This document shows positions 2,258 to 64,000 of a stretch of DNA of 64,000 nucleotides, in pieces. Within the stretch, counting starts at the first letter, position 1; each line of letters opens with the position of its first letter. Below the pieces are notes generated by a model. That model made no database searches and was not told the origin of the DNA. It was given only the letters and a program-made list of their open reading frames with translations. Source of the stretch: Phycisphaerae bacterium (lineage in GTDB: Bacteria; Planctomycetota; Phycisphaerae; Phycisphaerales; UBA1924); contig PAKY01000024.1 of assembly GCA_002706885.1 (NCBI GenBank), positions 1,774 through 65,773 on the forward strand, in the 5' to 3' direction. The position numbers were made by a program, and so were the translations under genes.

Positions 2258-2431
2258 GGTCTCACTCTCCTCGATATCGATGGAAGTTGAGCGATCGTTG
2301 AATCGCCGATTGGCGCAACACCCGCGCACAACTACCACAATATAGGGGGAGGTTGGCACACCGGTTTCGGGCAATCCGCAGGTTCTGCGCGGATTCCACA
2401 CAGATCTTTGGGCCTGTAACGGATTTGGCGT

Positions 2432-38264: not shown

Positions 38265-38489
38265 GCTCTCTCTCCTCTGGTCTGCGGTTGTGGCCGGCGC
38301 CAAGACATGGGTCTGACACCGTGAGCGTCCCCGTCAAGGGAGCGATCGAAAGGTACTCCGAGAGCGGGGGGCGGCAACACAAGTCATTGCCGGTCATCAG
38401 GTTGAAGACCGTTTCGAGGTATTCGGACCCGCGCGACCCACCCCGGACGCCCATGCAGACCTCGCCGCGACCCCGACCTATCGTCGCGC

Positions 38490-38882: not shown

Positions 38883-39068
38883 AACCGCTGGAACGACCGA
38901 TAACCCGCGCCGGAACTCGATCGGGGCGTCCGCCGCACCTTTCTCTCAGACAACTTCAGAAACGGGGTGCATTCGCCGAGATCGGTGGCACCGTTCTCTC
39001 GCCGAGAACCGGTGTCGGCGGACGCTGTTGTGGTGCGTCCGTTGTGTGAGACGAATGGAGTTGAAGAG

Positions 39069-39728
39069 ATGAAGAAGATCCAGACCATCGCCCCCGTCCT
39101 CGCGATCATCGCGGCGTCGGGCGCGGCGAACGCCGGTCTCGTCCAGAGCGATAGCGATTCGCTGACCGTCAGCCACCTCGGCGGCGCGCCCCTCTCGCTC
39201 ACCCTCGACGCCTTCGACGACATGGGCGGGACCCTCATCCTCCAGAGCGCGTCGGTCACCCTCAGCTACACGCTGACCCTCGATCACATGGTCGAGCAGA
39301 TCGCCGGCTCCGTCCCCGCCGAGTCCGACTTCGACTTCAACTTCTCCATCGGCATCAGCAGCATCGACATCCCCCTCGGCCTGAGCGACACCGAGCTCTA
39401 CGAGGCCGACTACGTCCTCGCTCCGTTCGACGGCGCGATGGACTTCGACGGCGACTCGGGCGAGACGCGCACGTGGAACGACGGCAACAGCGTCGGCTCG
39501 ACCTACGTCAACGGCGACCTCGTTTTCTTCTCGAACGACCTCGACTTCCTCGTATCGGGCACGACGCTCGGTGTCTTCTCGAGCACCTACGGCGGACAGC
39601 TCGAAGGCTGGAACTTCTCGGTTACCGTCGACGCCACCGTCGAGTACTTCGCGACCGAAGTCCCGACCCCCGCGAGCGCCTCGCTGCTCGCCCTCGGCGG
39701 CCTCGTCGCGACCCGTCGCCGTCGCTGA
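39069..39728 (+). CDS. secreted protein with PEP-CTERM-like tail
   Basis: Start ATG 39069 (MKKIQTIAPVLAIIAASGAANAG). C-terminus TEVPTPASASLLALGGLVATRRRR-stop. Confidence 0.85.
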   Translation: MKKIQTIAPVLAIIAASGAANAGLVQSDSDSLTVSHLGGAPLSLTLDAFDDMGGTLILQSASVTLSYTLTLDHMVEQIAGSVPAESDFDFNFSIGISSIDIPLGLSDTELYEADYVLAPFDGAMDFDGDSGETRTWNDGNSVGSTYVNGDLVFFSNDLDFLVSGTTLGVFSSTYGGQLEGWNFSVTVDATVEYFATEVPTPASASLLALGGLVATRRRR

Positions 39729-40047: not shown

Positions 40048-40770
40048 ATGCGCTCGTTCGAGATCACCGCTATCGCTGCGTCCATGCTCGCCGGCTCGGT
40101 CGCCAACGCCCAGACGTTCAACTTCGACTTCGGTTTCCAGCCGACCGACCAGAACGGCGACTACGTCACGCAGGGCTGGAACAACATCGACTACTTCACC
40201 TCGTTCTACGTCGGCCTGATCGACGACCAGGGCGTCACCCACAACGGCATGGCCCTCGAGTGGACCGGCTTCTACGACTCCGGCTCGAGCACCCAGGGCT
40301 CCGACAACCCCTCGGGCGACGCCGCCTTCCTCCCCGTGACCGCCTCCGACGACTACCTCTTCGGCCACGATGACGGCTGGGCCGGCCGCGAGGGCGAGTC
40401 CTTCGTCGAGATCACCATCTTCGGCCTCGACACCTCGGGCGACGTCGTCTACGACTTCAGCTTCTTCGGTTCCCGCGGCGGCGTCGCGGGCGTCCGCTCG
40501 GCGCTCTACACCGCCATCGGCGCCAACAGCGGCTCCGACTCGCTCAACGCCAGCAGCAACGACACCGACCTCGCTTACGTCAACGGCATCTTCGCCAACG
40601 CCAATGGCGAGATCACCATCACCATCCAGAAGGACGTCACCAACGACAACGGCGACGGCTTCTTCTACATCAACGCCGCGACCCTGACGTCGCGCATCGT
40701 GCCCGCTCCGGGCGCCGCCGCTCTCCTCGCCTTTGCGGGCGTCGGTGTCGCGACCCGCCGCCGCCGTTGA
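40048..40770 (+). CDS. secreted protein with PEP-CTERM-like tail
   Basis: ATG 40048 after GAGGGGG. Signal peptide MRSFEITAIAASMLAGSVANA. C-terminus RIVPAPGAAALLAFAGVGVATRRRR-stop. Confidence 0.85.
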   Translation: MRSFEITAIAASMLAGSVANAQTFNFDFGFQPTDQNGDYVTQGWNNIDYFTSFYVGLIDDQGVTHNGMALEWTGFYDSGSSTQGSDNPSGDAAFLPVTASDDYLFGHDDGWAGREGESFVEITIFGLDTSGDVVYDFSFFGSRGGVAGVRSALYTAIGANSGSDSLNASSNDTDLAYVNGIFANANGEITITIQKDVTNDNGDGFFYINAATLTSRIVPAPGAAALLAFAGVGVATRRRR

Positions 40771-40807: not shown

Positions 40808-41713
40808 ATGAAGCAGCACCTCTCCGCGGTCTGCGTCGCCGCGCTCGCCCTGGGCGCCGCGGCCGAGCCCAAGGACATCTTCTGGATCGGCAACAGCCAC
40901 ACCCGCTGGTCCGCCGCCACCGCCACCACGCCCAACGGCGGCAGCGTCCCGGGCGTCGCCGACCTCGTCGGCAAGCTCGCCGTCGCCGCTGGCTACGACG
41001 CTCCCAACCACTACTGGGACGTCATCAACGGTGAGTTCATCTCCAACCGCGTCGGCCGCGCAGCCTCGCTCGCGACCAACAGCGTCCCCGCGGGCGTCAC
41101 CATCGACACCCTCGTCCTCCAGGGGCACTCCACCGAGAGCCTCACCTGGCTCGGCGGCAACGCCGCAACCTTCGGCGCCAACACCGCCGCCATCGAGTCA
41201 GCGTTCCGCAACATGAACAACAGCGCGCTCGAGACCGTCCTCTACCAGACCTGGGCCCGCGAACGTGGCCACGGTGACTACCAGGCCAACGGCGGCCCCG
41301 TCCCCAGCATCCAGGCCTGGCACGACGCCAACCGCGCGAGCTACACCGACGCCGGCGCGGGCATCAACGCCAACGGCGGATCCGCCGAGGTCAGCCGCGT
41401 CGGCGACGCCTTCGCCCTCGCCGACTGGGACCAGCAGTACTACGTCGGCGACGACAACCACTTCAGCCGCGAAGGCGGCGTGCTCGCGAGCGTCGTCCTC
41501 TTCAACTCCATCTACAACGACGACGTCTCACGCCTCGACATCAACCTCAACGAGTTCGATGACGAGATCGAGATCACCCTCCGCCAGCTCGGCGTCTCCG
41601 CCGCCGAGTGGGAAGCCATCACCGCCCTCGCCACCCAGGCCGCCATCCCGGCGCCCGGCGTCGCGAGCGTCCTCGTTCTCGGCGGCGCCCTCGCCGCCCG
41701 TCGCCGTCGCTGA
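40808..41713 (+). CDS. secreted SGNH/DUF4886-like hydrolase-fold protein with PEP-CTERM-like tail
   Basis: ATG 40808 after AGAGGA. Signal peptide then DIFWIGNSHT (block I-like), LVLQGHS, VLYQTWARE, DDNHFSREGGVLAS (block V-like). C-terminus AIPAPGVASVLVLGGALAARRRR-stop. Only 37 nt after the previous gene. Confidence 0.82.
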   Translation: MKQHLSAVCVAALALGAAAEPKDIFWIGNSHTRWSAATATTPNGGSVPGVADLVGKLAVAAGYDAPNHYWDVINGEFISNRVGRAASLATNSVPAGVTIDTLVLQGHSTESLTWLGGNAATFGANTAAIESAFRNMNNSALETVLYQTWARERGHGDYQANGGPVPSIQAWHDANRASYTDAGAGINANGGSAEVSRVGDAFALADWDQQYYVGDDNHFSREGGVLASVVLFNSIYNDDVSRLDINLNEFDDEIEITLRQLGVSAAEWEAITALATQAAIPAPGVASVLVLGGALAARRRR

Positions 41714-41819: not shown

Positions 41820-42461
41820 TCAGGCCCGACGGCGACGGGTCGCCACCAGCCCGAGCCCAGCGCACGCCAGCGCCGCCCCCGACGGGAGCGGAACCGCGGC
41901 CGTGAAGCTGAAGTCGTTGATGCCGAACGTGCCGCCGCCGTTGCTCAGTTCGATGCTCGTGATCTGGAGCGACGGGTTCGAGAGCCCGAACGACTGGAAC
42001 GGGAACAGCAGCTCGATGCCGCTGCCAAACCCAGGCGCCGGAAGATCGAACGTCAGCGTGTCGCCGTTCCGCAGGCCAACCGCGAGGTGCAGCGTCTGGT
42101 CGCGACGACGCACGACCTCCAGCGACACGTCCGTCAGGTACGTCCCGGGCTCCGCGACATCGATCCGGATCGTCGACGTCACGGCGCCGAACCCGAGGCC
42201 CGCGGCCTGCAGGTCGCCGTCCCCATCGCCGAAGCCGCCGAAGCCGCCGAGGTCGCCCGCCACCGGCTGCTCGAGCGGGTGGTCGATGACATTGATCAGG
42301 TCGACCAGATCGCCGCTGAACAGCACGCCAAGCCCGGCGTACTGGTCGGTGATCTGTTCACCCGCGCCGACGAGGCCTTCGTCGAACGTGATGGTGGTGT
42401 TACCAGCCCACGCCGCGGCGGAGAGCCCGGCGAGAGCAACGAACGCGAGAGTCTTCTTCAC
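41820..42461 (-). CDS. secreted protein with PEP-CTERM-like tail
   Basis: GTG 42461, 7 nt after GGAGG (MKKTLAFVALAGLSAAAWA). C-terminus AAVPLPSGAALACAGLGLVATRRRRA-stop. Confidence 0.85.
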   Translation of the reverse strand: MKKTLAFVALAGLSAAAWAGNTTITFDEGLVGAGEQITDQYAGLGVLFSGDLVDLINVIDHPLEQPVAGDLGGFGGFGDGDGDLQAAGLGFGAVTSTIRIDVAEPGTYLTDVSLEVVRRRDQTLHLAVGLRNGDTLTFDLPAPGFGSGIELLFPFQSFGLSNPSLQITSIELSNGGGTFGINDFSFTAAVPLPSGAALACAGLGLVATRRRRA

Positions 42462-44171: not shown

Positions 44172-45386
44172 ATGACCATCGCCCGCCGAACGGCCGCAAG
44201 CCTCGCCGCCGCCGCCGCGCTCTGTGCGAACGCCCCCGCCGGCGAGCCACAGGTCACCATCGAAGGCCTCGAGAACGGCCAGGTGGTCTCGGGCCAGCTC
44301 CTCCTCCAGGGAACCGCCGCCGCCGCGACGCGCGTCGCCGTCTCGATCGACAACGGCCCCTTCACCCCCGCCGACGGCGTCCAGTCGTGGACCTTCCTCC
44401 TCGACGCATCCACGCTCGCGTTCGCCCACCACACCATCACCGTCCGCGCCCGCGAAGGCTTCGGCCCCTTCGCCGAGGTCGAACGGTCCATCATCGTCAA
44501 CGACCAATCGCCGCCGACGCCCGCCTGCGATTCAATCACACCAGGCGCCCTCGTCGCCCCCGACAACGCCGTCGCGCCGACGCGCCTCAACTTCCCCGCC
44601 GGCTCGCGCATCCACCTCGTCATCATCGGCCACAGCGAGAACCGCGGCTACGACGCCCCCCTCCGCGATCTCCTCACCGCCAACCCTCCGGGCGGTTACG
44701 ACTTCGACATCACCAACATCTGGATCGGCGGACACGAGACCTATCGATGGGGCGCCCCGGGCCAGCAGGGCTACGAAGCGGTGGGGGACGTCCTCGCCAC
44801 CATCAACGGCCCGACCCTCGCCCTCATCCTCACCTCCAACAACGTCACCTACCCCGCCTCCGAGCCGACATTCGACGACGCCAACCACGCCCGCTTCGTC
44901 GACGAGATGGAGCAACTCGCAGACCGCCTCCACGCCGACGGCGCAGGCGTCGATATGTGCTTCTTCTCCGCCCATCGCATGAAGCCCGACAACCTCATGC
45001 CGTCCTGGTACGAGAACCTCGCGGTCAACGACCTCCTTCGCCGCGCCGAGGCAATGAACAAGCCCTACATCAAGGCCGGCCCCGAACAGCATCAACTCCA
45101 CTGGTGCTGCTACCCCGACTGCTACGCCCCCGACCACTCGCACACCAACGCCGCGGGCGACGCGCTCATGGCCGAGGCCTGGTACCGCGTCCTCGACGCC
45201 GCGCTCGCGCCCTGCCCCGCCGACCTCGCCGAGCCGACGGGCAAACTCGACATCGCCGACGTCGTCGCCTTCCTCCAGTTCTTCGGCGTCATGGATCCCC
45301 GCGCCGACCTCGCCGCTCCCACGGGGGTGTTCGACGTCGCCGACGTCGTCGAATTCCTCCGCGCGTTCGGAGCCGGCTGCCCCTGA
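44172..45386 (+). CDS. secreted Ig-like + SGNH-like hydrolase-fold protein with GC-type dockerin-like C-terminal module
   Basis: ATG 44172, 7 nt after AGAGGAG. Signal peptide TIARRTAASLAAAAALCANAPAG. LVIIGHSE, DHSHTNAAGDALMAEAWY. Last 57 aa: CPADLAEPTGKLDIADVVAFLQFFGVMDPRADLAAPTGVFDVADVVEFLRAFGAGCP. Confidence 0.88.
   Translation: MTIARRTAASLAAAAALCANAPAGEPQVTIEGLENGQVVSGQLLLQGTAAAATRVAVSIDNGPFTPADGVQSWTFLLDASTLAFAHHTITVRAREGFGPFAEVERSIIVNDQSPPTPACDSITPGALVAPDNAVAPTRLNFPAGSRIHLVIIGHSENRGYDAPLRDLLTANPPGGYDFDITNIWIGGHETYRWGAPGQQGYEAVGDVLATINGPTLALILTSNNVTYPASEPTFDDANHARFVDEMEQLADRLHADGAGVDMCFFSAHRMKPDNLMPSWYENLAVNDLLRRAEAMNKPYIKAGPEQHQLHWCCYPDCYAPDHSHTNAAGDALMAEAWYRVLDAALAPCPADLAEPTGKLDIADVVAFLQFFGVMDPRADLAAPTGVFDVADVVEFLRAFGAGCP
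45213..45383 (+). repeat. GC-type dockerin-like module, copy 1 (coding repeat)
   Basis: 57 codons from the first Cys to the terminal GCP. Internally duplicated: DLAEPTGKLDIADVVAFLQFFG / DLAAPTGVFDVADVVEFLRAFG. Confidence 0.85.
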
Positions 45387-45529
45387 CCGGCATCGCGATC
45401 GATCCCTCATAAAATCCTGCGCGTGAGTCATCGCCGCGCGCCCGCGCTGTCTCCTAAGGACATCAACGATCGACGGGGAGCGGCCAGGGCGTCGCGCATC
45501 GCGGTCGAACAACACCCGGGAGACCCGAC

Positions 45530-47134
45530 ATGCTCGCGACGCGAACCGCGATCGCTGCGCTGTGCCTCTGCGCCGCCTCGCACGCCCACGCCCAGCCGAC
45601 CACGCGCCCCAACGCCATCATGACCCTCTCCTCCTCGGGCGTCCAGGCCAACAGCCTCAGCCTCAACGTCGCGATCAGCGCCGACGGACGTCACGTCTTC
45701 TACGCCAATCGCTCCACCAACCTCGTCATCCCCGCCACCGTCGGTCAGCAGATCTTCGCCCACGACCGCGACCCCGACGCCAACGGCGTCTTCGACGAAG
45801 GCAACGGCGTCACCACGCTCATGTCCCTCGGCGTCGACGGTCTCGAGGGCAACGGCTTCACGGGCGGCTTCAACGGTCAGGCGAGCATCGACTGCTCCGC
45901 CGACGGCCGCTTCGTCATCTGGCAGAGCCAATCCACCAACCTCATCCCCGCCGACGGGTCGGGCCGACCCAACTACGACGTGTTCATCCGCGATCGAGAC
46001 CCCGACGGCAACGGTGTCTTCGACGAAGGCAACGGCGTCAACGAACGGATCAACGAGCCCGTCGCGGGCGGCGAGCCGTCCTCCGGCGACAACGGCAACG
46101 ACCACATCGCGATCAGCGATGATGGCCGCTACGTCGCCTACAGCTCATCCTCGACCAACCTCGTCGCGCCATCGATCAACAGCGTGCGTCCGGGCATCTA
46201 CGTCCGCGATCGACTGACCCAGACCAACCTGCTCATCCAGGCGCCCGACATCAACTTCGGCTTCCGCTACCCCGACATCTCGGGCGACGGTGAATGGGTC
46301 GTCTACGCAGGTTTCTTCCTCACGGGCGGACAGCAGGTCGTCGTCAGGCCGCGAGCCGGCGGAGCCGCCGTCACCGTCAGCCGAAACGACAACGGCGACC
46401 CGGGCGACGCCAACTCGGGCACGAACCCCAACTCGCACGGGCCACGCATCAGCCGCGACGGCCGCTTCGTCGTCTTCGGCTCGTTCGCCAGCAACCTCGA
46501 CGTCGCTCGCCCCGCCGACCAACCCAATATGTACAAGCTCTTCATCCACGACCGCGACGCCGACGGCAACGGCGTCTTCGACGAGCCCGGAGGCTTTACC
46601 ACCCGCCGCATGGACGTCGGTCCGGGCGGCGTCGGCGGCAGCGCCTTCCCCGCCGATCCGGAGATCTCCGCCGACGGCGCCCGCGTCGTCTTCTCGTCCT
46701 CCGCCGACAACCTCGTCCCTGGCGACGCCCTCCCGGGCTTCCAGGGACGCGACATCTTCCTCTACGAACGAGCGACTGCGGCGCTCTCGATCGTCAGCCG
46801 CAACGACGCGGGCACGCAGGCCACCGCCCAGAGCTTCGATCCCAAGATTGCAGCCGACGGCGCCAGCTTCATCTTCAGGTCCGCCGCCAACAACCTCGTC
46901 GCGAACGACAGCAACTTCGGCGAGGACGTCTTCGCCCGCGATCTCCCCCCGACCGGGTGCTCCGCGGCCGATCTCGCCGCGCCGTTCGGGGCCCTCGATA
47001 TCGCCGACGTCGTCGGCTTCCTGAGCTTCTTCGGAGCGATGGACCCCCGCGCCGACCTCGCCGCCCCCGCCGGAACGTTCGATATTGCCGACGTCGTGAC
47101 CTTCCTGAGCCTCTTCGGCGCGGGCTGCCCATAA
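45530..47134 (+). CDS. secreted PD40/TolB-like beta-propeller repeat protein with GC-type dockerin-like module
   Basis: Signal peptide MLATRTAIAALCLCAASHAHA. Repeated ISADGRHVFYANRSTNLV / SADGRFVIWQSQSTNLI / SDDGRYVAYSSSSTNLV / SRDGRFVVFGSFASNL / SADGARVVFSSSADNLV. Tail CSAADLAAPFGALDIADVVGFLSFFGAMDPRADLAAPAGTFDIADVVTFLSLFGAGCP. Confidence 0.9.
   Translation: MLATRTAIAALCLCAASHAHAQPTTRPNAIMTLSSSGVQANSLSLNVAISADGRHVFYANRSTNLVIPATVGQQIFAHDRDPDANGVFDEGNGVTTLMSLGVDGLEGNGFTGGFNGQASIDCSADGRFVIWQSQSTNLIPADGSGRPNYDVFIRDRDPDGNGVFDEGNGVNERINEPVAGGEPSSGDNGNDHIAISDDGRYVAYSSSSTNLVAPSINSVRPGIYVRDRLTQTNLLIQAPDINFGFRYPDISGDGEWVVYAGFFLTGGQQVVVRPRAGGAAVTVSRNDNGDPGDANSGTNPNSHGPRISRDGRFVVFGSFASNLDVARPADQPNMYKLFIHDRDADGNGVFDEPGGFTTRRMDVGPGGVGGSAFPADPEISADGARVVFSSSADNLVPGDALPGFQGRDIFLYERATAALSIVSRNDAGTQATAQSFDPKIAADGASFIFRSAANNLVANDSNFGEDVFARDLPPTGCSAADLAAPFGALDIADVVGFLSFFGAMDPRADLAAPAGTFDIADVVTFLSLFGAGCP
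46958..47131 (+). repeat. GC-type dockerin-like module, copy 2
   Basis: 58 codons, TGC at 46958 to the terminal GCP. By eye it shares most nucleotides with copy 3. Confidence 0.85.
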
Positions 47135-47210
47135 CCGCCGCCCGATTTCGCCTTGGGAAGCCAACGCCGATCCGCTACGTTGGGCGCTCCTCGAAGGGAA
47201 GGAGCCCACG

Positions 47211-48203
47211 ATGTCGAGCCGTCGGTACATCCTCGCTCTAGCCGCCGGCTTCCTTGTGACGGCCGACGCCTCGACGACGTTCGCCGGACCGTTCGTCATC
47301 GAGTCCGAGGGGAAGTACCGCGTCGAGATCGCCGACGGCGATATCTACGCCGAAGCCACCTCAAACGTCCGCAGGAGCCAGGACTTCAGCGACGGCGACT
47401 TCTTCGGAGCGTCCGTTTTCGACGCCCCGGTCTTCCAGGACCTCGCCTCGATCGTTGACCGAGGCGACACCGCCTCCGCGTCCCTCGCCAGCGTCCTGCT
47501 AGAGATCGACCCGACGCAGGCGAAGATCTCCTTCGCGACTGACGCAGCGGCCGCGGTGTCGGAAGCCTTCGACAATTCAGCCATAGCGCAGGTCGCGATC
47601 GCCCTGCAGTTCACCGTTGAGACACTCGACAAGTCGTCCACCGCGACCGGCCCCTCGCTCTACATCCCCTACGCGGTCGCCGCGACCGAAAACGATCCCG
47701 AGCTGTTCACCGTCGAAGGCGCCTCTGCCTCGTTCGCCCTCTTCGGTCCGGGCATCGTGCAGGGAGTCTCTGTCGACGGCGACACGACGCCGCCTCACAC
47801 GCCCGCCGTGCTCGTCTACGAGAACCTCGCCGATGGCCTGTACGAGATCACGGTCTCGAGCGAAATCGGATTCAACGAACTCCAGGACGACGAGACCTTC
47901 GTCTACGCCGCCGCCGCGATCGTCCAACTCTGCTTCTTCGACGCCCCGCTCGATCCGATGGACCCCGAGTTCCCGCAGCCGCCGCCGCCACCGACGCTGC
48001 GCGACCCGCTCAACCAGGGCGGCCCCTGCTCCGACGCCGATCTCGCCAAGCCCTTCGGCGCCCTCGACATCGCCGACGTCGTCGCCTTCCTGAACCTCTT
48101 TGGCGCGATGGACCCCGCCGCCGATCTCGCCGCGCCATTCGGAACCTTTGACATCGCCGACGTCGTCACGTTCCTCAATCTCTTCGGCGCCGCCTGCCCC
48201 TGA
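47211..48203 (+). CDS. secreted protein of unknown fold with GC-type dockerin-like module
   Basis: ATG 47211 after GGAAGGAG. Signal peptide MSSRRYILALAAGFLVTADA. Pro-rich linker PEFPQPPPPPTL. Tail CSDADLAKPFGALDIADVVAFLNLFGAMDPAADLAAPFGTFDIADVVTFLNLFGAACP. Confidence 0.85.
   Translation: MSSRRYILALAAGFLVTADASTTFAGPFVIESEGKYRVEIADGDIYAEATSNVRRSQDFSDGDFFGASVFDAPVFQDLASIVDRGDTASASLASVLLEIDPTQAKISFATDAAAAVSEAFDNSAIAQVAIALQFTVETLDKSSTATGPSLYIPYAVAATENDPELFTVEGASASFALFGPGIVQGVSVDGDTTPPHTPAVLVYENLADGLYEITVSSEIGFNELQDDETFVYAAAAIVQLCFFDAPLDPMDPEFPQPPPPPTLRDPLNQGGPCSDADLAKPFGALDIADVVAFLNLFGAMDPAADLAAPFGTFDIADVVTFLNLFGAACP
48027..48200 (+). repeat. GC-type dockerin-like module, copy 3
   Basis: 58 codons, TGC at 48027 to the terminal ACP. 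Confidence 0.85.
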
Positions 48204-48753
48204 CGACTCGGGCTTGATCGCTCCCCAACTCAGGCGATTTTGAGGGGTATCGCAACCGCTGTGCGCAACATGCGCGACATGCGCATTCTTTTCGACGCGC
48301 CGCCTCGATTTGCCCGTACATTCACTCCGTCCCGCCCAAGCAACGCCGCTGACCCCGGCGATGGCGCCGCCCACGGAGAGAGTGACCGTGACAATCCAGA
48401 CGCTCTTGAGGACAGCGGCGATCGCCGCCGCAATCTGTGTCTTTGCGCCGATTTCCGCCAGCGGAGGCGTTCCGCGATGGACGCAACGAGATGACCGACC
48501 TCACAACAAGCTTGCAAGAGAGTTTGGCCTCGAACCTCTGAAGTTTCGAGGATCAGATCGGGAGAGGTTCTCGTACAATCGACCGAAGACTCGCTCCACG
48601 GTCGCCAGGCCAAAGTGGAGGGAGCCGACCGCCGCCGGGCACGGGGAGCCCGGCCCGTCTCGCCCTGGGACGGAGCGGCGCCACACGGCGCGGACGGTCG
48701 CCACAAGAACGGTCGATGCACGCAAGCATCACCGAAGAAAGCAGGACTCCGCC

Positions 48754-51150
48754 ATGCTCGCGATGCCCGCCACGTCACGCCAGGCCCTCGTTCCGGTCGC
48801 GTCGGTCTGCTGCGCCGTCGCCGCCGCATCCGGTCAGCCCTGCGCCGCGCCGATCTTCAGCGGCCAGATCGTCTCAACAGGCGATCAGCCGATCGCGACA
48901 GCTCAGGGCGACCTCAACGCCGACGGCCTGCCCGACCTCGTCGTCACGAACTTCGGATCGGGCGACGTCTCGGTCTGGCTCAACGCCGGCTTCGGCCAGT
49001 ACCCGCTGGGCGTCCGCTACCCCGTCGGCCAGTCGCCCCAGGGCGTCGCCATCGGCGACGTCAACGCCGACGGCGCCCCGGACCTCGTTGTCGCGAACCA
49101 GAGCGACGACACCATCAGCGTTCTCATCAACGACGGCGCCGCCTCGTTCGCCGAGGCGACATCGTTCGTCGCGGGCGACGGCGCCACGGCGGTCGCGCTT
49201 GCCGATGTCGATGGCGACGCCGACCTCGACGCGATCGTCGCGAACTACGTTGACGACACCGTGAGCGTCCTGCTCAACGACGGATCGGGTCTCTTCGGCG
49301 CCCCGACCGACACGGCCGTCGGCGCCCGACCGATCTCGATCGTCACGGGAGACCTCGACGCCGACGGCGACATCGACGCGGTCACCGCCAATGAAGCCAG
49401 CGGGGATGTCAGCGTGCTGCTCAACGACGGCGCGGGGGTCATGACCCTCGGCTCGACGGTCGCGGTCGGCCCGGGCCCGACATCCGCCACGCTCGCCGAC
49501 CTCGACGGCAACGGCTCGCTCGATCTCGCGGTGGCGAACTTTCAATCGGGCGGCGTGACCGTTCTGTCCAACAACGGCGGCGGCGCCTTCGGCGCCCCGA
49601 CGACTCTGGCGACGGACGCTTCGGCTTCGAGCGTGGTCGCCGCCGATCTCAACGGCGACGGCGCCGCGGACCTGATCGCGACCGACTTCGCGACCGCCGA
49701 GGCGATCGTTCTCCTGAACGATGGATCGGGTGGGTTCCAGGCGCCGTCTTCCTATTCGACCGGCGACGGCGCCGTGGGTCTATCGGTCGCTGACATCGAT
49801 GGCGATAGGGATGTGGATGTCGGGTTCGCCACGTTGACGAGGAAGCGCGCGGGTTTCCTCCGCGGAGACGGGACCGGATCGCTCGCTGAGCAGCGCGTCA
49901 TCGACGTCGACACAAGACTCACCGGCGTGGTCATCGCGGACTTCGATGATGATGGCTGGCCAGACGTGGCGGCCACGGCGAGGGATGATGGCGACGTGCG
50001 GCTGCTGCGGTCGATGGCAGGGGTCCTGGATCCGGTCGGCGTCGTCGGCGCCTTCTCGTCGCCGTTCAGACGGCTCCGCGCGGTCGATCTGAACGGCGAT
50101 GGCGCGACAGATCTGCTCTCCGCTGACGACCGTTTCGTCGACGGGCCGGTTGAGTTGCTCGTCAATGACGGTTCCGGCGGGTTCAAGGCCGCGGAGCCAA
50201 TTCTCGGTGATCTCGAGGTTGAGGAGTTCGATCTTGTCGACCTCGACGATGATGGCGACCTTGACTTCGTCGTCTACGCTGGTGACCGCCTCTACAGCTT
50301 TGAGAACGGGGACGACGGCGCCTTCGTTGAGCGTGAACTGACCGAGGTCTTGCCGCTGTCAAGTGCCTCCGTCGGCGGCATCCGCGTGGTCGATCTGGAC
50401 AACGACGGTCATCGCGATATTCTGGTCGGGTCGGTGAACAGCGTGCATGCTCTCTTTGCGGACGGGGCCGGTTCGTTTCTTCCGCTGGCCACGTTGTTCG
50501 AGGACGTCAGCGTGCCGTCGATCGATGTGGGAGATGTCGATGGCGACGGCGATCTGGACCTCGTCCGGACAGCCTGGAAGCAGCAGCGTCCGTTCCCGTT
50601 GCCGAACTCGATACCGGCCGGCGTCTATCTCCATCGAAACAACGGCTCCGGTCAGTTCGAGCCGGCTGAATATGTGGCTCCCTTCGAACACCCCGAGGAG
50701 ATCGAGCTGCGTGACCTCGATCGTGACGGCGACCTCGACATCGTGGTCGGCGCGACCTTCCTCTTTGAGGGTGACAACGGGGGCTTCGTCGCGACGCTTG
50801 TCAACGACGGCGGCGGTCAGTTTGGACTGACGAGTCAGGTGAACGCGCAGATTCTCTCGCTCAATTTCGCGATCGGTGATCTGAACGTCGATGGACGGCT
50901 CGACATGGTCGTGACGTCGAGCCAGTTTCCGAAGGCGTTCGTATCGACTGGCCTCTGTGTTGACGTGCCGCCGTGCTCGGCGGCGGACCTCGCCGTTCCG
51001 CTGGGCACGCTTGACATCGCGGACGTTGTCGGGTTCCTCCAGCTCTTCGGCGATCAGGATGCTTCGGCGGATTTGGGGGCGCCGGTGGGGGTGTTTGATA
51101 TTGCGGACGTGATTGCGTTCCTGCAGGTGTTTGGCGCGGGGTGTCCCTGA
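48754..51150 (+). CDS. secreted FG-GAP/VCBS-repeat (integrin-alpha-like) protein with GC-type dockerin-like module
   Basis: More than 10 repeats of the type GDLNADGLPDLVVTNFGSGDVSVWLN / GDVNADGAPDLVVANQSDDTISVLIN. Tail CSAADLAVPLGTLDIADVVGFLQLFGDQDASADLGAPVGVFDIADVIAFLQVFGAGCP. Start set at ATG 48754 (MLAMPATSRQALVPVASVCCAVAAASG). The frame is open back to 48310 (see findings). Confidence 0.85.
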   Translation: MLAMPATSRQALVPVASVCCAVAAASGQPCAAPIFSGQIVSTGDQPIATAQGDLNADGLPDLVVTNFGSGDVSVWLNAGFGQYPLGVRYPVGQSPQGVAIGDVNADGAPDLVVANQSDDTISVLINDGAASFAEATSFVAGDGATAVALADVDGDADLDAIVANYVDDTVSVLLNDGSGLFGAPTDTAVGARPISIVTGDLDADGDIDAVTANEASGDVSVLLNDGAGVMTLGSTVAVGPGPTSATLADLDGNGSLDLAVANFQSGGVTVLSNNGGGAFGAPTTLATDASASSVVAADLNGDGAADLIATDFATAEAIVLLNDGSGGFQAPSSYSTGDGAVGLSVADIDGDRDVDVGFATLTRKRAGFLRGDGTGSLAEQRVIDVDTRLTGVVIADFDDDGWPDVAATARDDGDVRLLRSMAGVLDPVGVVGAFSSPFRRLRAVDLNGDGATDLLSADDRFVDGPVELLVNDGSGGFKAAEPILGDLEVEEFDLVDLDDDGDLDFVVYAGDRLYSFENGDDGAFVERELTEVLPLSSASVGGIRVVDLDNDGHRDILVGSVNSVHALFADGAGSFLPLATLFEDVSVPSIDVGDVDGDGDLDLVRTAWKQQRPFPLPNSIPAGVYLHRNNGSGQFEPAEYVAPFEHPEEIELRDLDRDGDLDIVVGATFLFEGDNGGFVATLVNDGGGQFGLTSQVNAQILSLNFAIGDLNVDGRLDMVVTSSQFPKAFVSTGLCVDVPPCSAADLAVPLGTLDIADVVGFLQLFGDQDASADLGAPVGVFDIADVIAFLQVFGAGCP
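50974..51147 (+). repeat. GC-type dockerin-like module, copy 4
   Basis: 58 codons, TGC at 50974 to the terminal GCP. Confidence 0.85.
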
Positions 51151-52179: not shown

Positions 52180-52668
52180 ATGTCACAGGTCGCTCTCAGC
52201 AAGGTCAGCGCTCCCACCCGTCGCACGAAGCGACTCGGCGCGTTTCGCGCCCTGACGCTGAGCATGGCGACCGGTGGCTTGATCCTCGGTGGTTGCAGCA
52301 ACGCGGGCGAGGGCGCGGTGAGCGGCACGCTGCTCGGCGCGGGCTCGGGCGCGGCGATCGGTTCGTTGACCGGATCTGCTGGCAAGGGCGCGATCATCGG
52401 CGCCATCGCGGGCGGCCTCGGCGGCGCAATCCTGGGTGACCAGAACCAGCGGAAGGACAGCCGGGCGCGTCAGACGCGTTACAACGACCGCTCGCGTGAC
52501 TACGAGTACCGCGAGTATCGGGAGTACCGCGACGACCGTCCGTACAGCCAGCCGCAGCCGGAGTACTACGAGCGGAGCGACAGCCACTACGAGCGTCGCG
52601 ACGACGGGTACTACGAGCGGACGTACGAGCGCGAGGTTGAGCGTCGGTACGAGCCCGACTGCCGCTGA
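52180..52668 (+). CDS. glycine-zipper lipoprotein with Arg/Tyr/Glu-rich low-complexity tail
   Basis: ATG 52180 after GGAGG. Lipobox LILGGCS. Gly-zipper GTLLGAGSGAAIGSLTGSAGKGAIIGAIAGGLGGAILG. Tail RDYEYREYREYRDDRPY..EYYERSDSHYERRDDGYYERTYEREVERRYE. Confidence 0.75.
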   Translation: MSQVALSKVSAPTRRTKRLGAFRALTLSMATGGLILGGCSNAGEGAVSGTLLGAGSGAAIGSLTGSAGKGAIIGAIAGGLGGAILGDQNQRKDSRARQTRYNDRSRDYEYREYREYRDDRPYSQPQPEYYERSDSHYERRDDGYYERTYEREVERRYEPDCR

Positions 52669-61738: not shown

Positions 61739-64000
61739 TCAGGACGGGCAACCGATGCCGAAGAGTCGCAGGAACTCGACGACATCGGCGATGTCGTACG
61801 CGCCGAATGGCGCGGCGAGGTCGGCGGCTTCGTCCATGGCTCCGAACGCCTGAAGGAAGGTGACGACGTCGGAGATGTCGAGTTCGCCGAATGGCTCGGC
61901 GAGGTCGGCGTCGTTGCAGGAGCCGCCGACGAGGGTGACGGTAAGTGTGGAGCCAACTTCGAAGACGTCGACGATCTCAAAGACTTCTTCGGCGGCGAGA
62001 TCGAAGTTGAGCGGTGATCCATCGGCGAGCATTCCGGTGAGGACGCCGGTTCGGCGCGTGATGGTGAAGGGCTCGCCGGGCGTGAGACCCTCGATCGGCG
62101 CGCCGTTGATGAAGAACGACTCGCCGAGGATGTTGACGGCCGAGCCGGACGCCGCGTAGACGTTTCCAGAGAACACGCCGCCCGAGATGTTGATCTCCGA
62201 CCCGTCCCGGGCGATGAAGTTGACCAGGGCGCCGCCGGAGATATCGAGAACGGCGCCTGCTCGTGCCTCGAGGTCGTAGCCGACCTCGCCGGCGGCGATG
62301 CTTACTTTGGATTCCGCAAGAGCGAGGAGCTGTTCAGCGATGGCGCCGCCGGAGATATTGACGGTGGCGGCTCCGAACGCTCTGAAGCTTCGGGCGACCG
62401 CTCCGCTCGCGATGTTCACCACACTTCCTGCGTAGGCGGCGGACGCTTCTCCGATCGTTCCGCCATCGAGCGTGAATTCGCTTCCGCTGTAGACCTCGAG
62501 GCGGTCGGCGGCTGCGCCTCCGGTCATCGTGACTTGCGAGCCGGCGAACTTGGCGAGCGTTCCCACTGATCCGCCGTTGATGTCGAGCGTCGCATCGAGG
62601 GCTCGGAAATAGTCGGGCAGCGATCCATCGCCCGAGAGGGTGAGCGACTGGCCCGGGCGGAGCTGCTCGGGTCCGGCTCCGTTCTGGACGCTGATGGGGG
62701 TGGGATCGGCTGGGGGGATCGTCGTTGGCGTGATCGAGATCGCGGCGGGTCCGGGGGCGGTTTCCGCCGTGGTTCCCGGTTCGAGGAACTGGCGTCCGAT
62801 GATGATGACCGTGCCGTCGGCGAGCGTAGCGGCGAGCGTATCTCCGACTTCGAGCGATGTGGGGAGCGTCACGGCCGGCGAGCCGTTCAGACGGAATTCG
62901 GCGCCCTCAATCGTGAGCAGGCTGTCGTCCTGCCACGTCAGCCGTTCGCCGATGAGGCCGCCTGTGAGGTTGATGGTGGCGTCTTCGAAGGCGCTGACCG
63001 CAAGAACCTGTCCTGAGGCGATCGAGAGTTCGCTGTCGTCGCGGACGGCGGCGTTTGCGATGGCCGTCTCGCCCGAGACCGTCATAACGGCGTTGTCGTA
63101 GGCCCCGACGCGGTCACCGACGGCATCGCCCGATAGATCGACCTCGCTTCCGTCGAAGGCGTCGATGGACTCGAACTCGCCGCCCGAAACGCTGACCACG
63201 CTGTTCATGGCGTCGAGATCATCGCCTACGAAACCGCCTTCGATGTTCAGCGCTGCTCCTAGCGCAACGAAGTAGGACGGAAGGGCGCCGCCATCGGTGA
63301 GGGTCAGGGTCTGACCGGGACGGAGGCCCGACGGTCCGATGCCGGTGGCCACGGTCATCGGCTCTGGGTCGGCGGTGTCGAGAGGCGCCGAGACAAGCGT
63401 TGTCGTACCCGAGGCGAATGAGTCGGAGATCACACCGGAGAAGACGTCGGCGGGAACCTCGGCGAACAGGAACACGTCGCCGTTCGCGAGCGTGCCCGCG
63501 AGGGCGTCGCCCGGTTGGAGACCACCGTCGGGGAGCGAACTCACAGGTGAGCCGTTGAGGGTGAATTCACCGCCCACGATCGACAGCGAGCTTCCGCTGA
63601 GCGCGCGGAAGCGCTCTCCGAATGCGCCGCCGGTCATCGAGACGGCGCTTCCACCCTGGAGGTCCGAGTTTCGTCCGATGATTCCACCGGAGATCGCGAC
63701 CGTGCTTCCGTTCATCGCGACGAAGTTGCTGGTCAGAAGGCCGCCCGAGATGTTCACCGTGCTGCCCGAGCGAGCTTCGAAGCGGAACGCGAAATTTCCA
63801 CCGAAGATGTCGGTGGTTCCGCCGTAGATGCGGGTGTTGTCGCCGAAGGAACCATCGAAGATGCTGACCTGGCTGTTGACGTGTGCCGCGAACTCGTGAT
63901 CGACGGTTCCCGACAAGAAGTTCAGGTCGACACCCGGTCCCGCGTCGAAGGAGCGATCGATGAGGCCGCCGTCGACGTTGATGACGACGTTCGACACGGC
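61739..64000 (-). CDS. large secreted beta-helix-type repeat protein with GC-type dockerin-like module (N-terminus outside window)
   Basis: The frame is open to the window edge. It contains dozens of (I/V)SGG..-type rungs and three larger units each ending F(T/R/F)(L/I)NG(S/A)P..L(A/T)G(T/M)LA(N/D)G. Tail CNDADLAEPFGELDISDVVTFLQAFGAMDEAADLAAPFGAYDIADVVEFLRLFGIGCPS. Confidence 0.85.
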   Translation of the reverse strand, partial: AVSNVVINVDGGLIDRSFDAGPGVDLNFLSGTVDHEFAAHVNSQVSIFDGSFGDNTRIYGGTTDIFGGNFAFRFEARSGSTVNISGGLLTSNFVAMNGSTVAISGGIIGRNSDLQGGSAVSMTGGAFGERFRALSGSSLSIVGGEFTLNGSPVSSLPDGGLQPGDALAGTLANGDVFLFAEVPADVFSGVISDSFASGTTTLVSAPLDTADPEPMTVATGIGPSGLRPGQTLTLTDGGALPSYFVALGAALNIEGGFVGDDLDAMNSVVSVSGGEFESIDAFDGSEVDLSGDAVGDRVGAYDNAVMTVSGETAIANAAVRDDSELSIASGQVLAVSAFEDATINLTGGLIGERLTWQDDSLLTIEGAEFRLNGSPAVTLPTSLEVGDTLAATLADGTVIIIGRQFLEPGTTAETAPGPAAISITPTTIPPADPTPISVQNGAGPEQLRPGQSLTLSGDGSLPDYFRALDATLDINGGSVGTLAKFAGSQVTMTGGAAADRLEVYSGSEFTLDGGTIGEASAAYAGSVVNIASGAVARSFRAFGAATVNISGGAIAEQLLALAESKVSIAAGEVGYDLEARAGAVLDISGGALVNFIARDGSEINISGGVFSGNVYAASGSAVNILGESFFINGAPIEGLTPGEPFTITRRTGVLTGMLADGSPLNFDLAAEEVFEIVDVFEVGSTLTVTLVGGSCNDADLAEPFGELDISDVVTFLQAFGAMDEAADLAAPFGAYDIADVVEFLRLFGIGCPS
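61742..61918 (-). repeat. GC-type dockerin-like module, copy 5 (inverted orientation)
   Basis: 59 codons, CNDADLAEPFGELDISDVV...FGIGCPS. Confidence 0.85.

What the first reader, a model, noticed from the sequence alone, without database searches (positions are those of the whole stretch)
44172..51150. Four tandem secreted proteins (plus a fifth 10 kb away) share a Cys-bracketed, internally duplicated C-terminal module: a GC-type dockerin-like display set with no partner in sight
Seen: genes 44172-45386, 45530-47134, 47211-48203 and 48754-51150 are co-directional, and each has a signal peptide. Their passengers differ: Ig-like plus SGNH-like hydrolase fold; PD40/TolB-like propeller; an unknown beta-rich domain; and more than 10 FG-GAP/VCBS repeats. 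All four end in the same 57-58 aa: C-x(2,3)-DLAxPxGxxDIADVVxFLxxFG-xxDxx-ADLAAPxGxFDIADVVxFLxxFGAGCP-stop. The module is two copies of a unit of about 27 aa. Cys is the first and the penultimate residue. The copies are also similar at nucleotide level (dispersed repeats of about 175 nt at 45213, 46958, 48027 and 50974, and inverted at 61742). Knowledge: position, size and two-fold duplication mimic type-I dockerins. From memory, NCBI family models call such tails 'GC-type dockerin domain', and I know of no experimentally defined receptor. Inference: this is a modular surface-display system that docks heterogeneous enzymes and binders onto an unidentified cohesin-like or envelope receptor. The terminal Cys pair may clamp the module by a disulfide.
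Basis: partly seen in the sequence, partly recalled or inferred. Interest (0 to 1): 0.7.

Follow-up and report, generated by a model that had tools for sequence, protein, structure and literature searches.

The report
Dockerin-like tails on secreted planctomycete proteins
Five secreted proteins of a marine Phycisphaerae bacterium end in the same small, two-repeat, cysteine-bracketed tail; this tail belongs to an already catalogued family (NCBIfam "GC-type dockerin"), looks like a modified dockerin that has lost two of its calcium-binding residues per repeat, and probably docks the proteins onto a still unknown receptor.

Summary
Exactly five modules of 57-59 aa occur in the window. Each is at the C-terminus of a protein with a signal peptide, and the passengers are unrelated to each other. 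All five pass the curated NCBIfam model NF041540 (GC-type dockerin domain), so the family is already catalogued. It has no experimental or published characterisation that I could find.

The family is large: 11,279 cluster representatives. In the genome scan it occurs only in Phycisphaerales/Planctomycetota. It is strictly C-terminal (209 of 209 modules end within 5 aa of the stop) and usually ends in Gly-Cys-Pro.

The window's tails give no direct match to Pfam Dockerin_1 or to solved dockerins. Sister members of the same family have canonical D-x-N-x-D-G loops, and these do connect to Dockerin_1 and EF-hand. The window's type is therefore a derived dockerin: calcium-ligand positions 3 and 5 are Ala and Pro, and the loop has one extra residue.

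The residues that differ between genomes but are nearly fixed within a genome lie at loop positions 9-11 and the first helix turn. They are mirrored in both repeats. Positions 10 and 11 are the cohesin-specificity positions of classical dockerins. This supports docking to a genome-specific receptor.

No receptor, cohesin or conserved neighbour was found. Verdict: new members of a known kind, of moderate interest.

The parts
44172..45386 (+). Gene 1 (404 aa; GenBank MAY73778 starts at GTG 44166): signal peptide, Ig-like domain, possible SGNH/GDSL-like part, C-terminal module
   Evidence: ORF. Big_7 23.5 bits and GDSL E=0.09. Signal-peptide heuristic. GenBank name 'hypothetical protein'.
45213..45383 (+). 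Module 1 (57 aa): CPADLAEPTGKLDIADVVAFLQFFGVMDPRADLAAPTGVFDVADVVEFLRAFGAGCP
   Evidence: NF041540 47.8 bits (cut-off 29). AF2 pLDDT 94.4 with loop, helix 14-25, short helix 27-30, loop, helix 42-53.
45530..47134 (+). Gene 2 (534 aa): signal peptide, weakly PD40/beta-propeller-like passenger, C-terminal module
   Evidence: Exact protein found on a TARA Oceans contig. MAY73779.
46958..47131 (+). Module 2 (58 aa)
   Evidence: NF041540 40.2 bits. Local HMM E=4e-35.
47211..48203 (+). Gene 3 (330 aa): signal peptide, passenger with no family match, Pro-rich linker, C-terminal module
   Evidence: MAY73780.
48027..48200 (+). Module 3 (58 aa)
   Evidence: NF041540 42.3 bits.
48754..51150 (+). Gene 4 (798 aa from ATG 48754): signal peptide, 12 FG-GAP/VCBS-type repeats, C-terminal module
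   Evidence: FG-GAP_3 238.8 bits in 12 stretches. Signal peptide only at this start.
50974..51147 (+). Module 4 (58 aa). Its repeat 2 loop reads DLGAP.
   Evidence: NF041540 38.9 bits.
61739..64000 (-). Gene 5, cut by the window end (856 aa in full): signal peptide outside the window, Gly/Ser-rich repetitive passenger with no family match, C-terminal module
   Evidence: No upstream stop at the window edge. Full length and N-terminus from L117. MAY73794.
61742..61918 (-). Module 5 (59 aa, ends CPS)
   Evidence: NF041540 37.1 bits.

Best explanation
The five tails are members of the Phycisphaerales-specific 'GC-type dockerin' family. This is a derived dockerin, i.e. a pair of EF-hand-like loop-helix repeats.

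Proposed mechanism:
1. Each protein is exported by its Sec signal peptide.
2. The tail folds into a small two-helix module.
3. A disulfide between the Cys three to four residues before the first loop Asp and the Cys of the terminal Gly-Cys-Pro closes the module. This would be a covalent version of the dockerin 'intramolecular clasp'.
4. The module docks the passenger non-covalently onto a common receptor that is specific to each genome, on or near the cell envelope. It uses either of two symmetric faces (dual binding mode). Unrelated binders and enzymes are thereby displayed together.

In the window's type the calcium-ligand positions 3 and 5 are replaced by Ala and Pro, with one extra residue (Phe). 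Folding is probably less dependent on calcium, or independent of it.

Shown here: family membership, strictly C-terminal position, secreted carriers, transitive homology to dockerins, loss of two ligand side chains per repeat, and genome-specific residues mirrored in both repeats at positions that include the recognition positions.

Inferred: the disulfide, the docking itself, the nature and location of the receptor, and calcium independence.
For: Family membership: NF041540 scores 37-48 bits against a cut-off of 29 for all five tails.

Position and carriers:
- 211 modules in 932 kb of the window plus related loci, one per ORF. 198 of 209 end at the stop codon, and all end within 5 aa of it.
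- 11,279 cluster representatives match. Nearly all of the best 150 match up to their last residue.
- Carriers have signal peptides (56 of 83 by a strict rule, about 69 of 83 when h-regions without Lys/Arg are counted by eye) and extracytoplasmic passengers: FG-GAP, LVIVD, LTD, reprolysin/matrixin, CBM6/35, PA14.

Homology to dockerins:
- 28 of 211 modules have a canonical D-x-[ND]-x-[ND]-G loop in repeat 1, 12 in repeat 2 and 4 in both. These loops are always one residue shorter.
- Such members pass NF041540 at 31-64 bits. One also passes Pfam Dockerin_1 (30.2 against 22.9) and EF-hand_1.
- hhalign gives 99.5% probability (E 2e-22) between the A..P type and the canonical type. It gives 72% (E 3e-5) between the canonical type and the CelS/CelD dockerins, across both repeats.
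- The best PDB hits of the canonical type are dockerins 2y3n_B and 5lxv_B.

Fold: the AF2 model has pLDDT 94 and a loop-helix, short helix, loop-helix layout.

Evidence for a common receptor:
- Modules within a genome are 69.8% identical, against 57.1% between genomes. None of 1000 label permutations reaches this difference.
- The genome-specific columns are nearly fixed within a genome (H<=0.26 bit). They are loop positions 9-11 and their mirror in repeat 2. The first helix turn and the helix end are also genome-specific but less tightly fixed.
- Other variable columns stay variable within genomes (H 1.7-2.0 bit).
- Repeats 1 and 2 carry the same residue at these sites in 95% of modules.
- Positions 10 and 11 of each repeat are the established cohesin-specificity determinants, and sequence symmetry underlies dual binding (PMC8063739).

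Selection on the peptide rather than gene conversion: third codon positions are 33-68% identical.

Clasp: both Cys are present in 195 of 211 modules, and 207 of 211 have no internal Cys. Their positions match the dockerin clasp positions (PMC3821032).
Against: - No cohesin or other candidate receptor is present in the 64-kb window.
- None is a recurrent neighbour in about 110 related loci.
- The window's own tails fail every direct dockerin test: Pfam at E<=10, PDB HMM search, hhalign at 0.3%, and Foldseek (best dockerin E=9.7, TM 0.33).
- Two of the calcium-ligand side chains are missing in each repeat, so the classical calcium-dependent mechanism may not apply.
- Similarity within a genome could partly reflect shared ancestry of paralogues.
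- The near-invariant Gly-Cys-Pro directly before the stop codon (180 of 209 end in exactly CP) is stricter than in classical dockerins. It could point to recognition of the free C-terminus by an enzyme.
- The model coordinates could not be inspected, so the Cys-Cys distance is unverified.
Confidence: 0.55

Rival explanations
1. The tail is a C-terminal sorting or processing signal. A dedicated enzyme or transporter recognises the tail or its free Gly-Cys-Pro end. It moves the protein across or onto the outer membrane and may cleave the tail or modify the terminal Cys. This would be analogous in logic to PEP-CTERM/exosortase, LPXTG/sortase or T9SS C-terminal domains.
For: - The position is strictly terminal: all modules end within 5 aa of the stop, and 180 of 209 end in exactly C-P-stop.
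- G56 and C57 are almost invariant.
- The same genomes use another C-terminal tag, PEP-CTERM-like, on neighbouring genes.
- The NCBIfam product name calls the proteins 'anchored'.
Against: - The tail has no transmembrane stretch and no basic cluster (sequence).
- It is predicted to be a well-folded helical domain (pLDDT 94).
- It is homologous to a known protein-protein docking module.
- No candidate processing enzyme is a conserved neighbour.
- Surface residues vary by genome while the termini do not. This fits a binding face better than a universal signal.
Confidence: 0.15
2. The module binds a non-protein envelope component directly: the outer-membrane lipid or LPS surface, peptidoglycan or a capsular glycan. 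It would do so through its unusually aromatic helices, and no protein receptor would exist.
For: - The consensus is rich in exposed-type aromatic residues for a domain of 57 aa (F/Y at columns 15, 16, 21, 25 and their mirrors).
- No cohesin was found nearby.
- Glycosyltransferase and lipid-A-related genes lie downstream of the gene array (LAB_N, Glycos_transf_2). These are ordinary housekeeping genes.
Against: - Signature residues that are fixed within a genome, differ between genomes and are mirrored in both repeats, at positions that include the cohesin-recognition positions (PMC8063739), fit a co-evolving protein partner better than a generic lipid or glycan.
- Relatives of this fold are known as protein-docking modules.
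Confidence: 0.15
3. The module is a calcium-dependent folding or stability domain, or a self-association domain, with no docking role. It would be an EF-hand pair that buffers or senses calcium, or that oligomerises the passengers.
For: - It is homologous to EF-hand and dockerin loops.
- The Asp residues at loop positions 1 and 12 are invariant in both repeats, with entropy 0.
Against: - Ligand positions 3 and 5 are lost in 152 of 211 modules for repeat 1 and 188 of 211 for repeat 2.
- The module is attached to more than 11,000 unrelated secreted passengers, always at the extreme C-terminus. This is the pattern of a targeting or docking tag, not of a sensor.
Confidence: 0.07

Closest known systems
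NCBIfam NF041540, 'GC-type dockerin domain-anchored protein' (dockerin_GC)
   Same: All five tails pass the curated cut-off. Like the relatives that sources already label with this name, they are C-terminal, come from Phycisphaerae/Planctomycetota and end in Gly-Cys.
   Different: Nothing defining differs. The window's tails score lower (37-48 bits) than canonical-loop members (up to 64 bits). They are a local sub-type, with D-I-A-D-V-V before and in the helix and F-G at its end. Most other genomes have N-F-F-D and Y/F-N. GenBank still calls the five proteins 'hypothetical'.
Classical type I dockerins of cellulosomes (Pfam PF00404; e.g. C. thermocellum CelS 1DAQ/2MTE, Xyn10B 1OHZ)
   Same: - Two tandem loop-helix repeats of about 25 aa at the C-terminus of secreted proteins.
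- Asp at loop positions 1 and 12.
- Sequence symmetry between the repeats.
- Genome- or species-specific residues at positions 10 and 11.
[quoted passage not shown]
- Homology through canonical-loop family members.
   Different: - No direct sequence or fold match.
- Positions 3 and 5 are Ala and Pro, with one extra residue.
- The clasp would be a Cys-Cys bond.
- The module ends exactly at the C-terminus.
- The hosts are Planctomycetota (a marine one for this window, by its TARA Oceans source) rather than cellulolytic Firmicutes.
- The passengers are FG-GAP, LVIVD, LTD and metalloprotease domains rather than mainly glycoside hydrolases.
- No cohesin partner is identified.
The hypothetical 'planctosome' of freshwater Phycisphaerae (Nemodlikiaceae), Andrei et al. 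2019, PMC6461901
   Same: - Same class of bacteria.
- It proposes non-cellulosomal cohesin-dockerin assembly of secreted peptidases.
- It uses the same cast of passenger domains that I find on GC-type modules: LTD, proprotein-convertase P domain, M12B reprolysin-like.
   Different: - That model is in silico and was built on cohesin and dockerin modules recognised as such.
- I could not test whether its dockerins are of the GC type.
- I could not test whether marine Phycisphaerales that carry the A..P-type module have cohesins.
PEP-CTERM/exosortase sorting signals
   Same: It is a C-terminal tag shared by many unrelated secreted proteins of one genome. Both tag classes occur side by side in this window and in related loci.
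   Different: PEP-CTERM is a short motif followed by a transmembrane helix and an Arg cluster, and it is cleaved by exosortase. The GC-type module is a folded, soluble, helical domain of 57 aa with no transmembrane helix.

Membership tests
NCBIfam NF041540 (GC-type dockerin domain) | HMM score at or above the curated cut-off (29 bits) | tested here: met
   The scores are 47.8, 40.2, 42.3, 38.9 and 37.1 bits. The negative control, the CelS dockerin, does not hit the model.
NCBIfam NF041540 (GC-type dockerin domain) | Domain lies at the extreme C-terminus and ends in Gly-Cys(-Pro) | tested here: met
   All five end in GCP or GCPS. Family-wide, 198 of 209 modules end at the stop codon. G56 is present in 199 of 211 and C57 in 201 of 211.
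NCBIfam NF041540 (GC-type dockerin domain) | Taxonomic range Phycisphaerae/Planctomycetota | tested here: met
   The source is a Phycisphaerae MAG. All 114 or more genomic pattern matches are in Phycisphaerales, Phycisphaeraceae or Planctomycetota MAGs.
Classical dockerin (Pfam PF00404 Dockerin_1) | Pfam HMM score at or above the gathering cut-off (22.9 bits) | tested here: not met
   The five tails give no PF00404 hit even at E<=10. A canonical-loop member of the same NCBIfam family does pass, at 30.2 bits.
Classical dockerin (Pfam PF00404 Dockerin_1) | Two tandem loop-helix (F-hand) repeats | tested here: met
   Internal duplication is visible in the alignment. AF2 gives loop, helix 14-25, then loop, helix 42-53.
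Classical dockerin (Pfam PF00404 Dockerin_1) | Calcium ligands at loop positions 1, 3, 5 and 12 (Asp/Asn), as in PMC8063739 | tested here: not met
   Positions 1 and 12 are Asp. Positions 3 and 5 are Ala (Gly in gene 4, repeat 2) and Pro, with one extra residue.
Classical dockerin (Pfam PF00404 Dockerin_1) | Three-dimensional fold superimposable on solved dockerins | tested here: inconclusive
   In Foldseek against the PDB, the only dockerin match is 4uyp_B at E=9.7 with TM 0.33/0.29. The domain is very small, and the model coordinates could not be inspected.
Classical dockerin (Pfam PF00404 Dockerin_1) | Homology detectable by profile comparison | tested here: inconclusive
   The direct comparison gives 0.3% probability. 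The transitive route gives 99.5% to canonical-loop members, and 72% (E 3e-5) from these to the CelS/CelD dockerins. The best PDB hits of the canonical-loop members are dockerins.
Classical dockerin (Pfam PF00404 Dockerin_1) | Symmetric specificity residues at positions 10 and 11 of both repeats (dual binding mode) | tested here: met
   Columns 15/16 and 43/44 are genome-specific, nearly fixed within genomes, and identical between the two repeats in 95% of modules.
Classical dockerin (Pfam PF00404 Dockerin_1) | Binds a cohesin module | not testable with these tools
   No cohesin is present in the window or among recurrent neighbours. Whole genomes could not be scanned.
Exosortase-type (PEP-CTERM) or other cleaved C-terminal sorting signals | Short motif followed by a transmembrane helix and a basic cluster at the C-terminus | tested here: not met
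   The module has no hydrophobic transmembrane stretch and no Arg cluster. The six neighbouring PEP-CTERM-like tails, by contrast, show [VI]PxP, a hydrophobic helix and RRRR.
T9SS C-terminal domain | Beta-sandwich C-terminal domain of about 70-100 aa | tested here: not met
   The predicted structure is helical and 57 aa long. The NF052323 hit on gene 4 lies in the FG-GAP region and scores far below its cut-off (33 against 600 bits).

The most novel reading that the evidence does not exclude
The A..P-loop GC-type modules are calcium-independent dockerins closed by a disulfide. In dual mode they bind a receptor that is specific to each lineage and is not a recognisable cohesin. The receptor could, for example, be one of the exosortase-anchored PEP-CTERM-like proteins encoded next to them. 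Together they would build an outer-membrane display complex (a 'planctosome') in marine Phycisphaerales, and this complex would organise thousands of different binders and peptidases.
Probability: 0.2. Interest if true: 0.7.

Novelty: new member of a known kind. Interest (0 to 1): 0.4.

Why it matters
Dockerins outside cellulosomes are widespread, but their partners are mostly unknown. This family is very large: 11,279 clusters at 50% identity. It is confined to one order of Planctomycetota, it tags a large and diverse set of secreted proteins, and in the genome scan it was found only in uncultured bacteria (MAGs).

If the tails dock onto a common receptor, they define how these bacteria arrange binders, peptidases and carbohydrate-binding proteins on their surface. 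This bears on particle attachment and polymer degradation in the ocean.

The natural series within one family is also useful. It runs from canonical calcium loops, through hybrids, to the Ala/Pro loops, all within the same Cys-bracketed frame. It offers a ready-made test of how an EF-hand or dockerin loop can lose its calcium ligands and still keep its fold.

The signature positions found here (loop positions 9-11 and the first helix turn, in both repeats) give concrete residues to mutate, and a co-variation handle for finding the receptor.

Tried and rejected
1. DNA repeat or gene conversion as the cause of the tail similarity. Rejected: third codon positions are 33-68% identical against 75-93% at positions 1 and 2, and the boundary at the first Cys is sharp.

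2. Direct dockerin membership of the window tails. No support from Pfam at E<=10, PDB HMM searches (only chance DARPin or forkhead hits), hhalign against CelS/CelD or Foldseek.

3. The search for related loci with alignments A2 and A1. The first had no usable conserved stretch. The second gave 235 pattern matches, none confirmed. A back-translated DPAADLAAPFG DNA pattern worked instead.

4. A 43-member 'recurrent neighbour' cluster in 35 loci. Rejected as an artefact of long antisense ORFs in high-GC genes: 36 of 43 are more than half covered by another ORF, nearly all of these a module-bearing ORF on the opposite strand.

5. PEP-CTERM-like neighbours as cohesin-like receptors. Could not be tested. 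They have no informative family hits. The chosen one (41820-42461) has no homologue other than itself, so no alignment-based model was possible.

6. Cohesin among secreted, module-less neighbours in related loci. None appears among recurrent families. Only 25 of 63 families were listed, so a single hit could be hidden.

7. Modelling a module with two canonical loops. The only proteins permitted for modelling are hybrids, so this was not pursued.

8. Several exact look-ups failed because of start-codon choice before 61117-61665 worked.

9. Weak hits were dismissed as chance or as repeat cross-matches: Ca_tandemer, T9SS M6-like and SaoC, and HSV_VP16_C.

Full report
**1. Observation**

The region holds four co-directional ORFs: 44172-45386, 45530-47134, 47211-48203 and 48754-51150. 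A fifth lies on the other strand, from 61739 to the window end. A profile built from the five tails was searched against all six reading frames. It finds exactly five modules, all at C-termini, with E-values of 1e-34 to 1e-36. Nothing else scores better than E=3.

The tails are 57-59 aa long and 70-77% identical to that of the first gene. 34 columns are invariant, including a Cys at the first position and a Cys in the terminal G-C-P. Gene 5 ends in C-P-S.

Gene 5 has no stop codon upstream at the window edge. On a longer TARA Oceans contig it is 856 aa long and begins with a clear signal peptide. Genes 1-4 also have signal peptides by a simple hydrophobicity rule. Three of four cytoplasmic control proteins fail that rule on hydrophobicity alone; the fourth fails only on acidic residues.

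The nucleotide similarity of the tails is 62-83%. It comes from selection on the peptide. Third codon positions are only 33-68% identical, against 75-93% at positions 1 and 2. Between a quarter and over half of the identical residues use different codons. Similarity ends abruptly at the first Cys.

**2. Source and surroundings**

The window comes from a marine Phycisphaerae MAG. The same proteins occur on TARA Oceans contigs. In GenBank they are MAY73778-81 and MAY73794, all named 'hypothetical protein'.

The rest of the window is ordinary chromosome. It encodes MutS, GyrA, ribosomal protein S1, glutamate dehydrogenase, MoxR/BatA, a histidine kinase, an S41 peptidase, an HD-domain protein, a Lon substrate-binding-domain protein, LAB_N, a family 2 glycosyltransferase, a ferredoxin, a SpoIIE phosphatase and GluQ-tRNA synthetase. 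There is no cohesin and no exosortase.

Directly upstream of the gene array, at 37.5-42.5 kb, lie five small secreted proteins with unrelated bodies. A sixth lies at 1529-2401. All six end in [VI]P-x-P, a hydrophobic helix and RRRR. This is a PEP-CTERM-like tag, although it scores below the thresholds of the curated models.

**3. What the module is**

All five tails pass the curated NCBIfam model NF041540, 'GC-type dockerin domain-anchored protein', at 37-48 bits against a cut-off of 29. The family is therefore already catalogued. No paper in the library uses its name.

An exhaustive profile search finds 11,279 cluster representatives at E<=1e-3, of which 3,502 reach E<=1e-10. Nearly all of the best 150 match up to their last residue.

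A back-translated core motif, DPAADLAAPFG, was scanned across one genome per species. It hit at least 114 loci. All of them are in Phycisphaerales, Phycisphaeraceae or Planctomycetota MAGs, with many loci per genome.

The window plus these loci total 932 kb and contain 211 modules. There is never more than one per ORF. 198 of 209 end exactly at the stop codon, and all end within 5 aa of it. 53 of 116 records carry two to five modules.

Rare exceptions have three repeats but are still terminal (P0063, P0064). One has 23 extra residues after the Gly-Cys (P0192).

The carrier proteins are heterogeneous and of extracytoplasmic type. Their domains include FG-GAP, LVIVD, lamin-tail, reprolysin and matrixin metalloproteases, proprotein-convertase P domain, CBM6/35, PA14 and Ig. 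Most have signal peptides, and those without look like truncated gene calls.

**4. Relation to dockerins**

Every direct test on the window's tails failed:
- Pfam Dockerin_1 gives no hit even at E<=10.
- HMM searches of PDB sequences give only chance hits.
- Profile-profile comparison with the C. thermocellum CelS and CelD dockerins gives 0.3% probability. The two dockerin sequences were verified against the PDB.
- Foldseek with a confident AF2 model gives only one dockerin match, at E=9.7 and TM 0.33. The model has pLDDT 94.4 and the layout loop, helix 14-25, short helix, loop, helix 42-53.

The family itself, however, contains a natural series. Within the same frame (Cys ... N-F-F-D, helix ... 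N-A-G-C-P-stop), 28 of 211 modules have a canonical D-x-[ND]-x-[ND]-G loop in repeat 1. Twelve have it in repeat 2 and four in both. The canonical loop is always exactly one residue shorter than the A-D-L-A-A-P-F-G loop.

These canonical-loop members link the two families:
- They pass NF041540 at 31-64 bits.
- One also passes Pfam Dockerin_1 (30.2 bits against 22.9) across both repeats, and EF-hand_1.
- hhalign links the A..P type to the canonical type at 99.5% probability (E 2e-22) over the whole module.
- hhalign links the canonical type to CelS/CelD at 72% (E 3e-5) across both repeats.
- Their best PDB hits are dockerins (2y3n_B and 5lxv_B), followed by EF-hand proteins.

The window's tails are therefore homologous to dockerins, but derived. 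I numbered the loop as in classical dockerins, where calcium is bound by positions 1, 3, 5, 7 (backbone) and 12 (PMC8063739). The modules keep Asp at positions 1 and 12; both are invariant, with entropy 0. They keep Asn or Asp at position 9. They have Ala at position 3, Pro at position 5 and an inserted Phe.

**5. Evidence on function**

Modules within one genome are more alike (69.8% identity) than modules from different genomes (57.1%). None of 1000 label permutations reaches this difference, and the passengers are unrelated.

Column by column, the genome-specific positions are columns 14-16 (loop positions 9-11), 18-19 (first helix turn) and 26. Their exact mirrors in repeat 2 are columns 42-44, 47 and 54. 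Columns 14-16 and 42-44 are nearly fixed within a genome (H<=0.26 bit).

Other variable columns (3, 8, 12, 23, 40, 51) remain variable within genomes (H 1.7-2.0 bit). The pattern is therefore not simply recent duplication. The two repeats carry the same residue at columns 14/42, 15/43 and 16/44 in 95% of modules.

In classical dockerins, positions 10 and 11 of each repeat are the established cohesin-specificity determinants. Sequence symmetry between the repeats is the basis of the dual binding mode (PMC8063739). The GC-type signature therefore falls on the homologous recognition sites. The window's own signature is D-I-A-D-V-V in both repeats, whereas most other genomes have N-F-F-D.

Both Cys are present in 195 of 211 modules. 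Most exceptions are hits cut by a locus end. 207 of 211 modules have no internal Cys.

The first Cys lies three to four residues before the first loop Asp, and the second lies at the C-terminus before a Pro. These are the positions where classical dockerins form a non-covalent 'intramolecular clasp' that stabilises the fold and the binding site (PMC3821032). A disulfide clasp is thus a well-founded inference, but it is not shown.

**6. The receptor**

No receptor was found:
- An apparent recurrent neighbour family turned out to be antisense ORFs.
- Among 57 secreted, module-less neighbours in related loci, no cohesin recurs. The most frequent family is PEP-CTERM, in 5 of 57.
- The PEP-CTERM-like neighbour that I tried to model has no homologues.

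A cohesin/dockerin 'planctosome' has been proposed in silico for freshwater Phycisphaerae. It involves LTD, P-domain and reprolysin-type proteins (PMC6461901), and the same domains occur among GC-type carriers.

**7. Conclusion**

The best-supported reading (confidence about 0.55) is a derived dockerin, probably closed by a disulfide. It would dock many unrelated secreted proteins onto a common receptor that is specific to each genome, through two symmetric faces.

The rivals are:
- a cleaved or enzyme-recognised sorting signal (0.15), favoured by the strict G-C-P-stop ending;
- direct binding to a lipid or glycan of the envelope (0.15);
- a calcium, stability or oligomerisation domain (0.07).

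The five window proteins are new, so far unannotated members of a catalogued family whose function has not been studied. The added value here is threefold: the demonstration of how the family relates to dockerins, the loss of two calcium ligands per repeat, and the map of likely recognition residues.

Noticed in passing
window 37506-38303(-), 38946-39728(+), 40048-40770(+), 40808-41713(+), 41820-42461(-), and 1529-2401(-): Six small secreted proteins with unrelated bodies end in [VI]P-x-P, a hydrophobic helix and RRRR(A)-stop. This is a PEP-CTERM-like (exosortase-type) tag in which PxP replaces PEP. It scores below the thresholds of the curated models. Five of the six sit directly upstream of the dockerin-tail array, so two different C-terminal tag systems lie side by side. 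The protein at 38946-39728 also passes the 'choice-of-anchor E' domain model. No exosortase gene is present in the window.
   Followed up: partly
related loci L003-L116: PEP-CTERM is also the most frequent family among secreted, module-less neighbours of GC-type dockerin genes in other Phycisphaerales genomes. It occurs in 5 of 57 by Pfam, and 14 tails match the pattern in 838 kb.
   Followed up: partly
window 48310-48753 (upstream of gene 4): GenBank annotates gene 4 as 929 aa and ENA as 798 aa. Only the ATG at 48754 gives a signal peptide, and the upstream extension is rich in Arg, Pro and Thr. The GenBank start is probably too far upstream.
   Followed up: partly
whole window; sign change near 50-52 kb: GC skew follows the coding strand. 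It is about -0.1 to -0.23 where genes are on the + strand (roughly 26-50 kb) and +0.1 to +0.25 where they are on the - strand (52-62 kb). The flip marks convergent gene orientation rather than a replication landmark.
   Followed up: no
related loci, e.g. L027 2870-4612(-): In these high-GC genomes the antisense frame of long genes gives ORFs of 150-580 aa with high GC3. These cluster into a spurious 'family' of 43 members in 35 loci, which is a trap for neighbourhood analyses.
   Followed up: yes
database proteins P0063, P0064, P0192: Rare variants of the module exist. Two proteins have three repeats instead of two and are still C-terminal. One protein has 23 extra residues after the Gly-Cys.
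   Followed up: partly
window 52180-52668(+): A 162-aa protein has a Gly-rich (glycine-zipper-like) segment followed by a highly charged Tyr/Glu/Arg-rich repetitive tail (...YEYREYREYRDDRPYSQPQPEYYERSDSHYERRDDGYYERTYEREVERRYE...). It has no Pfam hit on record.
   Followed up: no
L117 13340-14176(-), just beyond the window end: An HNH endonuclease gene lies immediately next to the start of gene 5 on the longer TARA contig.
   Followed up: no
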